Virus record (IMG/VR): IMGVR_UViG_3300017963_000003
Span: 1 to 64,000 of that record
Reading direction: 5' to 3' (one strand)
DNA: 64,000 nt
Source: a virus
This document shows, one piece after another, positions 58,755 to 63,871 of this stretch; position 1 is the first letter of the stretch; the number at the start of each line of letters is the position of its first letter. The notes beneath the pieces are model-generated. The model was not told the DNA's origin. It saw only the letters and a list, made by a program, of their open reading frames with translations, and did no database searches. The position numbers were made by a program, and so were the translations under genes.

Positions 58755-58793
58755 GATTCACCTCTTTAGACGTACGTGTCCTGGTGACTATAT

Positions 58794-58825
58794 ACGATAG
58801 CATAGTCGAATGTGGGGATTCTAAA
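58794..58825 (-). promoter_or_regulatory. Putative late promoter, TTTAGAATCCC-N15-TATCGT (TATAGT also present at N22)
   Basis: Intergenic; third exact copy of the 11-mer at 58815-58825. Confidence 0.7.
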
Positions 58826-58854
58826 ATTGAAGAGGAAGTTCTCAGAAGGAGGAG

Positions 58855-59700
58855 CTAGAAGCGCGCACCCAACTCACGCTCTGCCCACTTCTTCACCGAC
58901 GGGTAGAAACCGTGTCCGAGCAAGTACTCCAGATCTCCCCGCGTGAGCTGCTGCCCCTCGTCGAGATCCCGCAACTCGTCCAACATCGGCCCGGCCTTCA
59001 TCCGGTCCTTCTCCTCGACGTCGTCCCCCACGCTGTTGCAGATGCCCACTACACGCGCCGTGACCTTGTCCTGGGGGTCCATGGGCTCCGCCTCACGCTC
59101 CTCGGCCATCTGCTCGATGGTCTTGCGCGGCTCCGGAGAGGGCTTCGTGAAAGTGCGTCGGTTCTGGAGGTCAGACTGCTCCTGGTGAGCCATGTCGATG
59201 GCCTCCTCAGCCGAGATACCGTACTGAGCACCGAGCTTCTCGTAGTACTCCAAGTACTCCCCCTCGTCCATGAGGACGAGTACCGGCGGACGGCGGTTGA
59301 CCATCTTGCGCAGGTCCGTGGACGCCTTGATGGCGTGGAACGGAACGAGCTGCGTCAAGTTGATCGGCTTCTTCCCCTTCGGGATGAGGATCGACTCGGT
59401 GCGACCCACGATAAGCTCGAACTGGAGCGACACCTGAGTGTTACTGCGGTTCTGCACGTAGACGTCGCGCTCCTCACGGAAGTACTCCGTGAAGTTGGTG
59501 ATGATCGGAACCCTGTTACCTTGACCGTTCATGACAACCTCCCTGGGATCTCTCGCCAGTTTGATGATGAAAGGCTCTCGCTTCACCACGACAGCCTTCC
59601 CCTTCTTGACCAGTTTTCTCGCCCTGGCGGGATGGGTGTACGACAGGACGGACCCGGACGTGTCCAAAACCGGGACCCGCGAACCTGTCGTACGTACCAT
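58855..59700 (-). CDS. Capsid-cluster protein with N-terminal IscB-type PLMP domain
   Basis: RVPVLDTSGSVLSYTHPARARKLVKKGKAVVVKREPFIIKL matches the PLMP consensus VFVLD..GKPLMP.HPARARKLLK.GKA.V....PFTI.L; internal GGGAGG + ATG at 59532. Confidence 0.8.
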   Translation of the reverse strand: MVRTTGSRVPVLDTSGSVLSYTHPARARKLVKKGKAVVVKREPFIIKLARDPREVVMNGQGNRVPIITNFTEYFREERDVYVQNRSNTQVSLQFELIVGRTESILIPKGKKPINLTQLVPFHAIKASTDLRKMVNRRPPVLVLMDEGEYLEYYEKLGAQYGISAEEAIDMAHQEQSDLQNRRTFTKPSPEPRKTIEQMAEEREAEPMDPQDKVTARVVGICNSVGDDVEEKDRMKAGPMLDELRDLDEGQQLTRGDLEYLLGHGFYPSVKKWAERELGARF

Positions 59701-59814
59701 CAGTGACCTTCAGGTGTGCCAGGGTGTTACCCTACCTCCCGCCGAAGCGGGGTTCATCGGATTAGGCGGCGGCGCGCGATGCGCCGCCGCCTGCACCTGC
59801 TTCCACGTCACGCG
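59701..59814 (-). other. Hairpin-dense intergenic element between the capsid gene and the PLMP gene
   Basis: 12-bp perfect stem at 59764-59792, a CCCGC-UUCG-GCGGG tetraloop hairpin at about 59738-59751, and AGGGT-AAC-ACCCT at 59721-59733; no U-tract. Confidence 0.55.
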
Positions 59815-61077
59815 CTACTTCTGGCCCTTGGCGCAGGAGCGAGCGTTGGCAATCGCGAACCCGACCATCTCGATGAAGGCCCAGCCCTTGACCGTCTCCT
59901 GGTGGCTGTACTTGTTGTACGGCTCGGAGAACAGCTCGATCCTGACACCCATCTCGCCCATGTAATCCGCGCCCGTCGTGGCATAGAAGCTTCCGGGCTC
60001 GATCACCTCTTCAACCCCCGTGCCTGCGGCGGTCAGAATCTGGGCGTTCAGGACGTTGCCGATGTAGCCCGCGAGGATCAACTCGCGCTCCGTCACCGGG
60101 TCCACGCTGGTCGACATGGTCTTGACGATGTCGCTCAGCTCGGACCGCGAGATCAGGAAGTTCTCGACCATCAGACGATGGCGCTCGACCTGGAACCGGA
60201 CGTCCTCGAAGGCGCCGATGCCCAACGTCGCGAACGTGGTCACGGCGTTGTCGGTCTGCGCGGCCTCGTCGATGAGGCTGATCGCAGCCTTGTCCTCCTG
60301 AAGCTCGATCTCCTGACGCGCGGTGTCCTGCGCCCGGTCGAGGACATCGAAGTTCATCTGGTAGATGTCCATGATGTCGATGGCCGGGAAGCTCGTCACC
60401 TTCCACTCGGGCGGGGTGATCCACTTCGTCTTGATGCGGCTCTCGGGGGACTGACCGTCCTGGCCGATGACCCACGCCGTCGAACGGATGTCCAGCGGGA
60501 TACGGAACAGCTCGGCCTGGGCCAGCTTCCGAACCCGGTAGATCTTCCGCGCGAAGCCCTCGTAGTCGAGGATCGCCTTGATCGGGAGCGCCAGCTCCTG
60601 ACCGACGATGTGGAAGCCCTGTCCGGTCGGGTCGGTGAGCGCGGCGGCGAGAATGTCGCGCCGAGCTTCCTTGCTGATCGAGGTCTCCGTGTCGGGACGG
60701 TAGAAGGAGAGCGCCTGAGCGTTCTTCTTCGTGACCTCGTTCATCAGCTGATGGATCTGCGTCATCGCCTCGCGCTTGTCGTGCGCGTTGATCTCACCCC
60801 TGCCGTCGAACATGCGACGGTCGGTGCTGCTGGCGGTGGCGCGACGGCTCGACGGAAGGTCGTACCGCTGCGGGTTGAACGTGCCGTTGCCCTCGAAGAG
60901 GCCCTCGTCGCGCTTGTTGGCGAAGCGGCCCGGACGTACGGCCATGCGGTCACGCGGCTGCTCGGAAGCCTCGCGACGGGGAGCGCGCTGTCGCCGGGTC
61001 TGGTCGCCATTCCTCTGCGCGGACCGCGAGGGGCCGGGGCGACGATTCTTGCTGATGCTCTTGAACGGATTGGACAT
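59815..61077 (-). CDS. Major capsid protein (HK97-like fold) with Arg-rich N-terminal extension
   Basis: GQELALPIKAILDYEGFARKI, VTSFPAIDI, DVLDRAQD.ARQEI..QED, AGYIGNVLNAQI; AGGAGG SD. Confidence 0.88.
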   Translation of the reverse strand: MSNPFKSISKNRRPGPSRSAQRNGDQTRRQRAPRREASEQPRDRMAVRPGRFANKRDEGLFEGNGTFNPQRYDLPSSRRATASSTDRRMFDGRGEINAHDKREAMTQIHQLMNEVTKKNAQALSFYRPDTETSISKEARRDILAAALTDPTGQGFHIVGQELALPIKAILDYEGFARKIYRVRKLAQAELFRIPLDIRSTAWVIGQDGQSPESRIKTKWITPPEWKVTSFPAIDIMDIYQMNFDVLDRAQDTARQEIELQEDKAAISLIDEAAQTDNAVTTFATLGIGAFEDVRFQVERHRLMVENFLISRSELSDIVKTMSTSVDPVTERELILAGYIGNVLNAQILTAAGTGVEEVIEPGSFYATTGADYMGEMGVRIELFSEPYNKYSHQETVKGWAFIEMVGFAIANARSCAKGQK

Positions 61078-61903: not shown

Positions 61904-63871
61904 CTACTGGCCCTGGACCCCGCCGAGACGTCCGAGTCTACGTCCCAGAAGAGTGCTTCCACCAATAGCGCTACGAAGATCAGCGACACCTGAAGATTGC
62001 GGAGGGCTGGATGCAGGAGCCCCATCGACCTCGAAATTGCCCTCGGCGGCTTCCCTACGAACCAGAGAAGCGCGACGAGAGGTACGTCGCATATCAGTCG
62101 CCTCGGCAGATCCCCTCACAGCAACCGGAGCGAGGTTCCTGAGGTCCTCCTCCGCGTCCTTGAGGTACGAGGCGTCCTTGGCCATCAGGTCGGCGGCTTT
62201 CTCCAAGAGAGCCTCCACGAACCTGTCATGACCTTCTGCGGTAATCAGCTCCGTCAGATCGACGGCGGCGGAAACGTCCATACCCGAATAGACGTCACCG
62301 TTGGCGAACTCGATGTCACCGGACTCCGCCGACAGGACGTCGACGGCGGCAACCTTGATCGGGTGCTCCTCATGGTTGAGGCGCATCCGCGACGACGCCA
62401 CCCGGACCGCACGAGCGAACTTCCGGACGAAGTCCTCCTTGGCCTCAGCGACAGCCTTCTTCGTCCGCTCGTCGTAGAGCTTCTTGAAGTTGGCGTGCGC
62501 CGAACGAATCACGTCATCTCCGCCCGAGAGAACATCACCTTCGGAACCGTTGTGCTGCTCCTGGGCGTTGGTGTCGGCGTCGGAAGTGGAGTCCATGGAC
62601 GGCTTGGAGGGCTTCTTCTCCTCGATGACGTTCTCGGCTTCGTCGAGGATGTCCTTGGTCTCGCCCTCAGCCTTCTTGCGAGCTTCGAAAGTAAGGCGCG
62701 CTCGCCGCAGGACAGCCCTGCGCTCACCGCTCAGGGTGCGCGGGGTCACCTTGTCGGGCTTCTCCCTGGTATCAACCTCGCCACCGGGAAGCGCCGAGTC
62801 CGGATCGGAGTCGTCGTACTCCTGACGGTTGACGTCCTCGGCGTCCGCGAGGATGCCCTGATTCTTCGGCTCGACTTCCTCGGCGCTGTTCAGCTCGATG
62901 TCATCGTCGACACCGGCAGCCCGCAGCATCTTCGCGTTACAGAACTCAGCGGCCTTGCTAAACCCCTGGTAAACAGCGAGCCCGTACACACGGTTGGCCA
63001 AACGCCGAAGAGCTTCGGGGTCGTTGCGATACTTGTCAGCAGGAACTGCGTGGAAGATCGCGCCATGATCCTCGTGATGCGCGACCAGCGTACGGCTTCG
63101 GGTGATGGCGATCTTGATCTTCTTCGCCCTGGCAGGCATCGTAGTGTCCTCGTGAGCCATCGAACCCTCCCCGGCATCCGAGATGCCCATCTCCTCCGCT
63201 GAAGGAGAAGTGCCGGCTTCCTCTGCGCGCTCCTGAAGCTCCTGGATGTCTCCGTGCTCCTGCTCCTGCGCACGCCGCAACGTGGCCTCGCGCTCCTTGG
63301 AGAGGTCCGGCTTGTCGTCCTTCTTTTCCTCGGGCTTGTCGTCCTTCTTTTCCTCGGGCTTGTCGTCCTTCTTGGGAGGCTTCTCCTCGCCGGACTCGTC
63401 CTTCTTGGGAGGCTTCTCCTCGTCGGGCTTTCCACCCATCGAGGGCACCGGCTTGTCGTCGAGCTTGACCTCGATGGGATCGCCGCCACCCATCTCCTTG
63501 ACCTTCTCCGTGATCGGAGACGAGGGACCATCGGTAGCCTTCTCCTTGACGTCCGCCAGCTCGTCTTCCAGAATCTCGGCCTCCTCAGCCCTCTCGATCT
63601 CTTCCTTGATGATTCCCTCGGTCTTCAGGAAGTCGACGATCACGTTGTACGCCGCGTCGGCATCGGGAGCCTTCTCCAGCTCCATGAGAACCTTCTCGAA
63701 CCCCGGAGGGGCGGACATGGCCGTCCGGTTCAATACCGACTTACGAACGAGATCCATGGTCTCGGATTCGATGCGCTCCTGGTCTGATGCCGAGAGGTTG
63801 ATCGTGCCCTTGGCGTGAAGATCCGCCACGGTCTTGAAGAGCTTGAATCGTTCGGTAAACGGCATTGTCAT
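61904..63871 (-). CDS. Probable capsid scaffold / assembly protein
   Basis: 655 aa, highly charged and low-complexity (DDKPEEKK x2, KPPKKD x2), with helical C-terminus; canonical position upstream of the decoration and MCP genes. Confidence 0.6.
   Translation of the reverse strand: MTMPFTERFKLFKTVADLHAKGTINLSASDQERIESETMDLVRKSVLNRTAMSAPPGFEKVLMELEKAPDADAAYNVIVDFLKTEGIIKEEIERAEEAEILEDELADVKEKATDGPSSPITEKVKEMGGGDPIEVKLDDKPVPSMGGKPDEEKPPKKDESGEEKPPKKDDKPEEKKDDKPEEKKDDKPDLSKEREATLRRAQEQEHGDIQELQERAEEAGTSPSAEEMGISDAGEGSMAHEDTTMPARAKKIKIAITRSRTLVAHHEDHGAIFHAVPADKYRNDPEALRRLANRVYGLAVYQGFSKAAEFCNAKMLRAAGVDDDIELNSAEEVEPKNQGILADAEDVNRQEYDDSDPDSALPGGEVDTREKPDKVTPRTLSGERRAVLRRARLTFEARKKAEGETKDILDEAENVIEEKKPSKPSMDSTSDADTNAQEQHNGSEGDVLSGGDDVIRSAHANFKKLYDERTKKAVAEAKEDFVRKFARAVRVASSRMRLNHEEHPIKVAAVDVLSAESGDIEFANGDVYSGMDVSAAVDLTELITAEGHDRFVEALLEKAADLMAKDASYLKDAEEDLRNLAPVAVRGSAEATDMRRTSRRASLVRREAAEGNFEVDGAPASSPPQSSGVADLRSAIGGSTLLGRRLGRLGGVQGQ

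What the first reader, a model, noticed from the sequence alone, without database searches (positions are those of the whole stretch)
58855..59814. IscB PLMP domain grafted onto a capsid-cluster gene, preceded by a compact structured element and followed by an internal start
Seen: the first 56 codons match the PLMP domain, with no RuvC, bridge helix or HNH following. The domain ends exactly at a strong internal SD+ATG (59532) that would give a 225-aa protein, and the 114-nt gap upstream holds three hairpins and no U-tract. Known: in IscB/IsrB the PLMP domain is N-terminal and contacts the omega-RNA encoded just upstream. Inference: a domesticated OMEGA fragment (mini RNA + RNA-binding domain) making long and short isoforms, possibly autoregulating read-through from the capsid gene or tethering RNA to the head. 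The simpler alternative is a neutral scar of an IS200/605 insertion that happened to stay in frame.
Basis: partly seen in the sequence, partly recalled or inferred. Interest (0 to 1): 0.7.

Follow-up and report, generated by a model that had tools for sequence, protein, structure and literature searches.

The report
IscB-type PLMP domain on phage protein
A family of large phages carries, right after the capsid gene, a gene in which the small RNA-hairpin-binding PLMP domain (so far described only in the RNA-guided nucleases IscB/IsrB) is fused to an unrelated phage protein; the gene keeps a second internal start and a conserved two-hairpin leader RNA, which points to a selected, probably regulatory module and not a transposon scar.

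Summary
Window 58855-59700 (-) encodes a 281-aa protein. Residues 9-54 are a true PLMP domain: Pfam RRXRR 40.4 bits, positions 1-46 of 174 only; structural Z 6-8 to solved IscB/IsrB N-termini. No RuvC, bridge helix or HNH follows. The domain ends at a strong internal SD+ATG (59532), and a structured 114-nt gap precedes the gene.

The fusion is not a scar. All 36 related viral loci and Virus Rctr197k keep PLMP in frame with the C-domain, down to about 30% identity. dN/dS of the PLMP codons is 0.01-0.34. The phage has no IscB, TnpA or HEARO RNA.

The internal start is conserved in 24/24 loci, usually with a much stronger SD than the first start, so long and short isoforms are likely. Two leader hairpins just 5' of the first start are conserved with compensatory changes and occur once in the genome. 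They match no omega-RNA model, but their layout resembles the tandem terminal hairpins that PLMP binds in IsrB.

Best reading (about 40%): the basic PLMP head of a minor long isoform binds its own leader. RNA binding, isoform production and the C-domain's function are untested. Head tethering has no support.

The parts
58855..59700 (-). Long isoform CDS, 281 aa: PLMP domain + linker + C-domain
   Evidence: ORF. An in-frame stop lies 3 codons upstream of ATG 59700, so this is the only start that includes a whole PLMP domain. Homologs of 262-304 aa carry PF14239.
59539..59676 (-). PLMP domain (residues 9-54); net charge +8, pI 11.1
   Evidence: Pfam; six-frame HMM search of the phage's own genome; structural matches to IscB/IsrB; phmmer to 9k30; charge.
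59538..59544 (-). Internal Shine-Dalgarno sequence AGGGAGG embedded in the linker codons (P-R-E)
   Evidence: Sequence. Conserved as AGGGAGG, AAGGAGG or AGGAG in relatives. Duplex energy -11.8. Synonymous divergence is lowered in the linker.
58855..59532 (-). Short isoform CDS, 225 aa (C-domain only), from the internal ATG at 59532
   Evidence: Equals the public gene call P0001. The ATG is conserved in 24/24 loci examined. It is similar in size and fold to stand-alone 203-246 aa proteins of jumbo phages.
59764..59792 (-). HP1: 12-bp GC-rich hairpin just after the capsid gene stop; no U-tract here
   Evidence: Fold. The sequence varies but a strong hairpin is present at this place in all relatives. 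It is followed by a U-tract in L012, L029 and L031. The terminator scan is negative in the window.
59738..59751 (-). HP2: CCCGC-UUCG-GCGGG, flanked by a 5' AAC (U-rich + AAC in most relatives) and a 3' AGG, so the 3' arm reads GGGAGG (SD-like)
   Evidence: The covariation count shows 100% of cells paired, and the top pair changes on both sides. Longer stems with compensatory changes occur in L008, L020, L029 and L031.
59722..59732 (-). HP3: GGGU-AAC-ACCC, followed by the conserved UGGCAC (59716-59721)
   Evidence: Three of its 4 pairs change on both sides among 9 relatives (GGGU/ACCC, GAGC/GCUC, GGAU/AUCC).
59698..59758 (-). Conserved leader element (HP2+HP3+first-start region) as matched by covariance model R1
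   Evidence: 67.8 bits, E=3.6e-16. It is the only significant copy in the 192-kb phage genome.
59707..59711 (-). Weak SD (GAAGG) of the long isoform, 6 nt before ATG 59700
   Evidence: Duplex energy is -3.5 here. The family mean is -5.6 against -9.05 for the internal start, and 7 of 23 relatives with an identified first start use GTG or TTG.
59815..61077 (-). Major head protein gene directly upstream
   Evidence: phrog_2522 major head protein, E=1.7e-58. The order capsid gene then PLMP gene is kept in nearly all relatives examined and in Rctr197k.
58755..58854 (-). 100-nt AT-richer spacer after the gene with a promoter-like site (58818-58845), suggesting the gene ends the capsid transcription unit
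   Evidence: consensus match only.

Best explanation
This is a conserved late gene of a lineage of large (about 140-210 kb) phages. It makes two in-frame proteins.

The strong internal SD+ATG (59532) gives the abundant 225-aa form. This is an acidic protein of unknown function, and its distant stand-alone relatives occur in jumbo phages. The weaker first start (59700) gives a minor 281-aa form that carries a very basic IscB/IsrB-type PLMP domain at its N-terminus.

PLMP is a small IF3-N-like domain. In IsrB and IscB it clamps two tandem hairpins of their own 5' leader, directly upstream of the start codon. I propose that the phage long isoform likewise binds the two conserved hairpins (HP2, HP3) in its own leader. 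That binding would feed back on initiation at the first start and fix a low long:short ratio, while HP1 attenuates or stabilises the capsid message.

Shown: domain identity, conservation and purifying selection of the fusion, conservation of both initiation sites, and covariation in HP2 and HP3.

Inferred: that both isoforms are made, that PLMP binds RNA here, and that the leader is its target.
For: PLMP identity.

The fusion is universal. All 36 viral loci match from query residue 1-11 through 273-281. The PLMP reading frame is open in all of them. Rctr197k has it too. The 'short' database proteins are start-site choices, for example P0015 against locus L009.

Purifying selection on the PLMP codons: L030/L032 have 14 synonymous against 1 nonsynonymous change, and omega is 0.01-0.34 wherever dS is not saturated, similar to the C-domain.

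Internal start: an ATG in 24/24 loci, mean anti-SD energy -9.05 against -2.9 for the background and -5.6 for the first start (Wilcoxon p=7e-4). First starts are often GTG or TTG. The linker has lowered synonymous divergence.

Leader: HP2 and HP3 are 98.8% paired, 4 of 9 pairs change on both sides, and 0 of 500 shuffles reach this. There is a single copy in the genome.

The PLMP part is basic in every member (net +3 to +8), and the rest is acidic.

Published structures: the IsrB PLMP binds the tandem hairpins SL7/SL8 and contacts the SD just upstream of isrB (PMC9581776). The IscB terminal hairpins are recognised by PLMP mainly without sequence specificity (PMC9640706). An IsrB relative shows a 5-bp hairpin (4-nt loop) followed by a 4-bp hairpin (5-nt loop) right before its AUG, sizes like HP2 and HP3.

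A second phage protein (P0086) has PLMP, the same linker and an internal AGGAG-ATG fused to an unrelated C-terminus. Two small hairpins also lie in its leader.
Against: There is no experimental or expression evidence for either isoform or for RNA binding.

The leader matches no omega-RNA model, although the HEARO model stops short of the terminal hairpins. Covariance model R1 does not find the IscB, IsrB or P0086 leaders, so the likeness to SL7/SL8 is one of layout and size only.

Short GC hairpins with stable tetraloops after capsid genes are common. They could equally be processing or stability elements.

HP3 lies 21 nt from the start codon in the window, further than in IsrB.

The PLMP motif itself is replaced by L-S-Y-T, so the binding surface may have changed.
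Confidence: 0.4

Rival explanations
1. The PLMP fusion and the two isoforms are functional, but PLMP has a different partner: phage DNA, another RNA, or a protein, as in its contact with RuvC in IscB. The leader hairpins are then an ordinary intercistronic module. HP1 would be the 3' stabiliser or attenuator of the abundant capsid mRNA. The U-rich UUUAA stretch in most relatives would be a nuclease cleavage site. HP2 and HP3 would be a 5' protective structure for the downstream message.
For: HP1 behaves like a terminator in lower-GC relatives, with a U-tract in L012, L029 and L031. A U-rich + AAC stretch precedes HP2 in most relatives. In P0086 the hairpins start about 10 nt after a sigma-70-like promoter, as 5' stabilisers do. 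There is no omega-RNA homology. In IscB/IsrB, PLMP also packs against protein domains (PMC9581776).
Against: It does not explain why the 3' arm of HP2 stays SD-like (GGGAG or GGAG) across subfamilies. It also does not explain why the element occurs only at this gene in a 192-kb genome with many operon junctions.
Confidence: 0.35
2. Only one protein is made. Either the internal SD+ATG is a fossil of the ancestral gene start and only the 281-aa form exists, or only the 225-aa form is made and the upstream frame is untranslated leader.
For: There are no protein data. Gene callers disagree between the two starts.
Against: The internal SD is kept at the nucleotide level, while the linker's amino acids vary, across relatives of 35-69% protein identity. 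Synonymous change is reduced there. The PLMP codons evolve under amino-acid-level constraint and the frame is never broken. That is not expected of an untranslated leader.
Confidence: 0.12
3. The region is a neutral in-frame scar of an IS200/605 (IscB) insertion.
For: The PLMP sequence is close to IscB PLMPs: 43-64% identity over about 45 aa to IscB fragments, and E=1.9e-6 to TbaIscB.
Against: The fusion is present in every one of 36+ loci, down to 30% identity. dN/dS is well below 1. The complete phage genome has no RuvC or HNH remnant, no TnpA and no HEARO RNA. Some members have even duplicated the domain.
Confidence: 0.02

Closest known systems
PLMP domain of IscB/IsrB (OMEGA nucleases) with the terminal hairpins of omega-RNA
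   Same: Same domain by sequence (Pfam above cut-off) and by fold. The basic helix HPARARKL-x3-GKA and the PF-I-L strand are conserved. It is N-terminal, and its start codon is preceded by two small tandem hairpins, one of which has an SD-like 3' arm.
   Different: No RuvC, bridge helix, HNH, TI or WED domains. No guide or omega-RNA scaffold (HEARO negative). No transposon context. The PLMP motif is replaced by L-S-Y-T. The domain is fused to an unrelated acidic phage protein, and a second start lies right after it.
[quoted passage not shown]
   Same: Same small alpha/beta fold. Foldseek lists 1tif and 6o6d below the IscB hits. Hirano et al. noted the same likeness for the IsrB PLMP.
   Different: No Pfam IF3_N match. 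The sequence is clearly of the IscB type.
Nested in-frame genes of phages (lambda C/Nu3, T7 gene 4A/4B, lambda S107/S105; from general knowledge)
   Same: One reading frame with an internal SD+start gives a long and a short protein that share the C-terminal part.
   Different: Here the extra N-terminal part is a borrowed nucleic-acid-binding domain. Production of both forms has not been shown.
Translational operators bound by the gene's own product (MS2 coat protein hairpin, T4 RegA/gp32, ribosomal protein operons; from general knowledge)
   Same: Conserved small hairpins close to the initiation region of a gene whose product carries an RNA-binding domain.
   Different: Binding is untested. 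Only the long isoform would be controlled.
Stand-alone C-domain proteins of jumbo phages (PaBG O152_gp154, Motura, BcepSaruman, phiRSL1)
   Same: Foldseek E 4e-8 to 1e-2 over about 200-230 columns. The profile hits PaBG gp154 at E=3e-5. Their size equals that of the short isoform.
   Different: They have no PLMP and no leader. In PaBG the gene overlaps its neighbour and lies beside a RuvC resolvase and a primase, not the capsid gene. Their function is unknown.

Membership tests
PLMP domain (N-terminal part of Pfam RRXRR, PF14239) | Sequence match above the curated cut-off | tested here: met
   40.4 bits against a cut-off of 25, E=3.6e-10, residues 9-54. The six-frame search of the phage's own genome gives 40.5 bits.
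PLMP domain (N-terminal part of Pfam RRXRR, PF14239) | Fold: small beta-sheet plus one helix that superposes on solved PLMP domains | tested here: met
   VIA Z 6.1-8.0, rmsd 2.2-3.7 over 48-51 residues, to 9k2z, 9k30, 8dmb, 9nvu and 9liq. Foldseek 9liq rmsd 1.5 over 45 columns.
PLMP domain (N-terminal part of Pfam RRXRR, PF14239) | The eponymous P-L-M-P motif | tested here: not met
   The aligned positions read V-L-S-Y in the window, and L-S-Y-T-H-P is the family consensus. The rest of the conserved core (HPARARKL, GKA, PF-I-L) is kept.
IscB / IsrB OMEGA effector | Split RuvC nuclease domain with a bridge helix after PLMP | tested here: not met
   Only profile positions 1-46 of 174 match. The structural alignments to IscB/IsrB stop at model residue 54-58. 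The remaining residues form a different beta/helical domain.
IscB / IsrB OMEGA effector | HNH domain (IscB) | tested here: not met
   No HNH family appears in the Pfam scan at E<=1.
IscB / IsrB OMEGA effector | Omega-RNA (Rfam HEARO) encoded upstream | tested here: not met
   No RF02033 match in the window region at E<=10, in eight relatives' leaders or in the whole phage genome. Four IscB/IsrB control loci matched at E 3e-14 to 6e-5.
IscB / IsrB OMEGA effector | IS200/605 context (TnpA, transposon ends) | tested here: not met
   No Y1 transposase in the complete 192-kb genome. The gene sits in a conserved capsid-gene synteny.
In-frame dual-start (nested) gene | Internal start codon with its own Shine-Dalgarno sequence, conserved among relatives | tested here: met
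   ATG in 24/24 loci. SD energy falls in the top 5% of the gene background in 19 of 24.
In-frame dual-start (nested) gene | Both proteins detected | not testable with these tools
No proteomic data are at hand.
Intrinsic terminator (HP1) | GC-rich stem followed by a U-tract | tested here: not met
   The stem is present (12 bp) but the window has no U-tract. Relatives L012, L029 and L031 do have one.
Autoregulatory leader operator | Conserved structured RNA next to the initiation site, supported by covariation | tested here: met
   98.8% of cells paired, 4 pairs with changes on both sides, 0 of 500 shuffles. The slid controls give 40-52% paired.
Autoregulatory leader operator | The gene product binds the operator | not testable with these tools
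   This needs EMSA or reporter assays.

The most novel reading that the evidence does not exclude
PLMP together with a pair of small leader hairpins is a self-contained, portable RNA-protein cassette that exists outside OMEGA systems. It has been placed in frame in front of the intact start sites of at least two unrelated phage proteins, and PLMP alone occurs in plasmid and pilus-locus proteins. In each phage case it creates a minor RNA-binding isoform that controls its own synthesis. The PLMP-SL7/SL8 contact of IscB/IsrB would then be the same module, so these phage and plasmid proteins would mark either the source of the domain that RuvC nucleases acquired or its first known exaptation.
Probability: 0.2. 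Interest if true: 0.8.

Novelty: new variant of a known kind. Interest (0 to 1): 0.6.

Why it matters
PLMP has been discussed only as an accessory domain of IscB/IsrB that Cas9 later lost. Its function has been inferred from its contacts with RuvC and the last hairpins of omega-RNA.

Here the same domain is stripped of the nuclease, conserved under selection in a whole lineage of large phages, and paired with conserved leader hairpins and a dual-start design. This gives a simple, nuclease-free system for asking what PLMP does by itself: hairpin binding, translational feedback, or something else.

It also bears on where IscB/IsrB got the domain. On the practical side, public gene calls for this family are split between two starts, so many database entries lack the PLMP domain.

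Tried and rejected
- **Omega-RNA homology.** Rfam scans of the window, of eight relatives' leaders and of the whole genome found no HEARO or other family. IscB/IsrB control loci were positive.
- **R1 on other leaders.** Covariance model R1 was searched with filters off against IscB, IsrB and other PLMP-gene leaders. There were no matches.
- **Closing helix.** The helix that encloses all three hairpins in the window (CAGGUG/CACCUG, GUGAC/GUCAC) was tested in 19 relatives. Duplex z-scores ranged from -2.8 to +2.0, so it is not a family feature.
- **C-domain function.** Pfam and PHROGs give only the unknown-function phrog_17686. Foldseek against the PDB has no hit at E<=0.001. VIA-wide gives only generic helical-repeat matches, Z<=6.4, to the last 70 residues. 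The protein atlas shows only viral hypothetical clusters.
- **Homodimer of the short isoform.** The complex prediction gave no verdict.
- **Erwinia phage Y3.** Its gene two places after the capsid gene (224 aa) is not related by BLASTP.
- **PaBG paper.** It says nothing about gp154.
- **Literature.** The library holds no paper that combines PLMP with phage and capsid.
- **Second RNA model.** A trimmed alignment for a hairpin-only model was mis-registered in HP3 and was dropped.

Full report
**1. What is there**

On the minus strand, an ORF runs from ATG 59700 to TAG 58855 and encodes 281 aa. It lies 114 nt downstream of a 420-aa major head protein gene (phrog_2522, E=1.7e-58). A 100-nt AT-richer spacer with a promoter-like site follows it. 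The window belongs to a complete 192,260-bp phage genome with direct terminal repeats. Other first-reader notes place tail tube, chaperone and tape-measure genes further downstream on the same strand. I did not check those notes.

**2. The PLMP domain is real and alone**

- Pfam RRXRR (PF14239) matches residues 9-54 at 40.4 bits (cut-off 25). Only profile positions 1-46 of 174 are covered, which is the PLMP part.
- No HNH family or any other nuclease family is found.
- phmmer against PDB sequences finds TbaIscB (9k30) at E=1.9e-6.
- An AlphaFold model built on 34 homologs has a confident N-terminal domain (strands at 9-12, 18-22, 36-40 and 45-48; helix 24-32). A low-confidence linker (52-66) and a confident C-domain follow.
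- The N-domain superposes on the first 50 residues of five solved IscB/IsrB structures, with VIA Z 6.1-8.0. Foldseek also lists IF3 N-terminal domains below them, as Hirano et al. reported for the IsrB PLMP (PMC9581776).
- The eponymous P-L-M-P motif is replaced by (V/I)-L-S-Y. The basic helix HPARARKL-x3-GKA and the PF-I-(K/Q)-L strand are kept.
- The phage genome has no second PLMP, no Y1 transposase and no HEARO RNA.

**3. The fusion is ancient and selected**

- A protein search found 43 clusters. Those of 262-304 aa carry PF14239.
- Those of about 221-226 aa start at the internal Met. Wherever I could see the DNA, these are start-site choices and not PLMP-less genes.
- All 36 IMG/VR loci found with the family profile match from query residue 1-11 to 273-281 in one frame. 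Their translations show the PLMP sequence. This includes L009, whose public protein P0015 is 'short'.
- The only relative in the phage collection, Virus Rctr197k, has an intact 379-aa ORF with PLMP plus the C-domain after its capsid gene.
- Three distant loci (L034, L035, L037) carry two PLMP domains in tandem.
- Nei-Gojobori counts give dN/dS of 0.01-0.34 for the PLMP codons wherever dS is not saturated. For example, L030/L032 have 14 synonymous changes against 1 nonsynonymous, and L009/L016 give 0.16. The C-domain behaves the same way.
- A neutral scar is therefore excluded.

**4. Two starts**

- The PLMP domain ends at residue 54. Residue 57 is an ATG (59532) preceded by AGGGAGG with a 5-nt spacer.
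- In 24 non-redundant loci an ATG is always present 3-14 residues before the conserved NFTEYF motif.
- Its anti-SD duplex energy averages -9.05 kcal/mol. Codon positions elsewhere in the genes average -2.9, and the first start averages -5.6 (Wilcoxon p=7e-4).
- Seven of the 23 loci with an identified first start use GTG or TTG there.
- The SD is written into variable linker residues (PRE, PKE, GGGD, LEG, RRR...). The linker also shows lowered synonymous divergence, for example pS 0.28-0.39 against 0.6-0.9 elsewhere.
- The loci are related, so these are not independent samples. Even so, the signal holds across subfamilies of 35-69% protein identity to the window.
- The first start is the only one that can include the whole PLMP domain. 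In the window an in-frame stop lies three codons upstream.
- I conclude that both starts are under selection and that the long form is probably the minor one. No protein or RNA data were obtainable.

**5. The leader**

- The 114-nt gap folds at -63.5 kcal/mol (z=-3.7).
- HP1 (59764-59792, 12 bp) has no U-tract here. Its sequence varies among relatives, but a strong hairpin is always present. It is followed by a U-tract in the lower-GC relatives L012, L029 and L031. It looks like a terminator, attenuator or 3' stabiliser of the capsid message.
- HP2 (59738-59751, CCCGC-UUCG-GCGGG followed by AGG) and HP3 (59722-59732, GGGU-AAC-ACCC followed by UGGCAC) are conserved in sequence and structure.
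- On a MAFFT alignment of nine relatives, 98.8% of cells pair and 4 of 9 pairs change on both sides. None of 500 shuffles reaches these values, and slid registers give 40-52% pairing.
- More distant members keep the plan with longer or different stems: L008, L018, L020, L024, L029 and L031.
- One subgroup (L022, L023, L025-L028, L030, L032) has an expanded 150-200-nt leader with five or six hairpins. Its first hairpin again reads ACCUCC...GGAGAG.
- A covariance model finds the element once in the phage genome.
- The helix that closes the whole multibranch in the window is not conserved.

**6. Relation to omega-RNA**

- Rfam's HEARO model hits the four IscB/IsrB loci I fetched as controls. It hits none of the eight relatives' leaders tested, and it does not hit the window. 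My model does not hit the IscB or IsrB leaders. There is therefore no detectable homology.
- The HEARO match ends about 30 nt before the IsrB start in L045. The terminal hairpins are thus outside that test.
- The published structures say that the IsrB PLMP binds the tandem hairpins SL7/SL8 and contacts the SD just upstream of isrB. They also say that the IscB terminal hairpins are recognised by PLMP mainly without sequence specificity.
- In a Desulforudis IsrB relative these are CUCCU-ACAA-AGGAG and GCGG-UGUAU-CCGC right before the AUG.
- The phage HP2 and HP3 have the same sizes, the same order and an SD-like 3' arm. That is a resemblance of layout, not proof of common descent.

**7. The rest of the protein**

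- The short isoform was modelled alone at pLDDT 88.9. It has a small beta domain, helices, an acidic disordered stretch and a C-terminal helical bundle. There is no convincing PDB match.
- BFVD gives matches to uncharacterised 203-246-aa proteins of jumbo phages: PaBG, Motura, BcepSaruman and phiRSL1 (E 4e-8 to 1e-2).
- The family profile finds PaBG O152_gp154 at E=3e-5. That gene lies beside a RuvC resolvase and a primase. A head-associated role therefore cannot be assumed from the gene's position in this phage.
- The PLMP part is basic in all members (net +3 to +8, pI 9.6-11.9). The rest is acidic (net -2 to -14).

**8. PLMP elsewhere**

- An exhaustive phmmer search with the 59-aa domain found 62 proteins. 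Some are repetitive false positives. Besides IscB fragments, they include other non-IscB architectures.
- P0086 (324 aa) and P0104 come from a 79-kb phage contig, two genes upstream of an HK97-type capsid gene. They consist of PLMP, a similar linker, an internal AGGAG-7 nt-ATG and an unrelated C-terminus. A sigma-70-like promoter and two small hairpins lie in the leader.
- P0064 lies next to TraL/TraE genes.
- P0056, with two PLMPs, lies next to tad-pilus genes.
- A FastTree of the roughly 45-aa domains separates the phage family and these proteins from the IscB/IsrB cluster, but resolution is low.
- The direction of transfer is therefore open. PLMP may be a free-standing module that IscB/IsrB also acquired.

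**9. Verdict**

- Firm: a selected PLMP fusion, dual initiation signals and a covarying leader.
- Inferred: RNA binding and feedback.
- Not shown: descent from an OMEGA element.
- Without support: head tethering.

The library I searched holds no description of PLMP in such a context.

Noticed in passing
L034, L035 and L037 (for example L035:2698-4005): Distant members of the family carry two PLMP domains in tandem before the internal Met and the C-domain.
   Followed up: partly
L054:3870-4975 (protein P0086; relative P0104): Another phage protein has PLMP, a similar linker and an internal AGGAG-ATG fused to an unrelated C-terminus, two genes upstream of an HK97 capsid gene. Its leader has a TTGACA-17-TATGAT promoter-like site and two small hairpins (CUUACA-UCU-UGUAAG and UUGGC-UAAC-GCCAA).
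   Followed up: partly
L055:491-973 (P0064) and L057:860-1444 (P0056): PLMP domains also occur in a 160-aa protein next to conjugation genes TraL/TraE and, doubled, in a 194-aa protein next to tad-pilus genes (RcpC, TadZ-like, TadA-like).
   Followed up: no
L053:5348-6019 (PaBG O152_gp154): The stand-alone homolog of the C-domain in Pseudomonas phage PaBG lies beside a RuvC Holliday-junction resolvase and a primase, not in the structural module.
   Followed up: partly
L024:1442-1518: In one relative a tRNA-Met gene lies between the capsid gene and the PLMP gene, upstream of its leader hairpins.
   Followed up: yes
window 58755-58854: A 100-nt AT-richer spacer after the gene holds a promoter-like site (58818-58845) and the string CGTATATAG. 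It may be a phage promoter that starts the next unit.
   Followed up: no
window 61904-63871 (-): A 655-aa acidic protein with KPEEKKDD-type repeats lies two genes upstream of the capsid gene. It is scaffold-like by position and composition only.
   Followed up: no
window 59716-59721 and relatives: The hexamer UGGCAC directly after HP3 is conserved in the close relatives. It is not explained by the hairpins, and it is not a complete sigma-54 promoter (no TTGC at the right spacing).
   Followed up: no
L001:4839-5978 (Virus Rctr197k): The homolog is annotated only as a misc_feature 'similar to hypothetical protein', yet it is an intact 379-aa ORF with PLMP and a C-domain that carries a Q/G-rich insertion.
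   Followed up: partly
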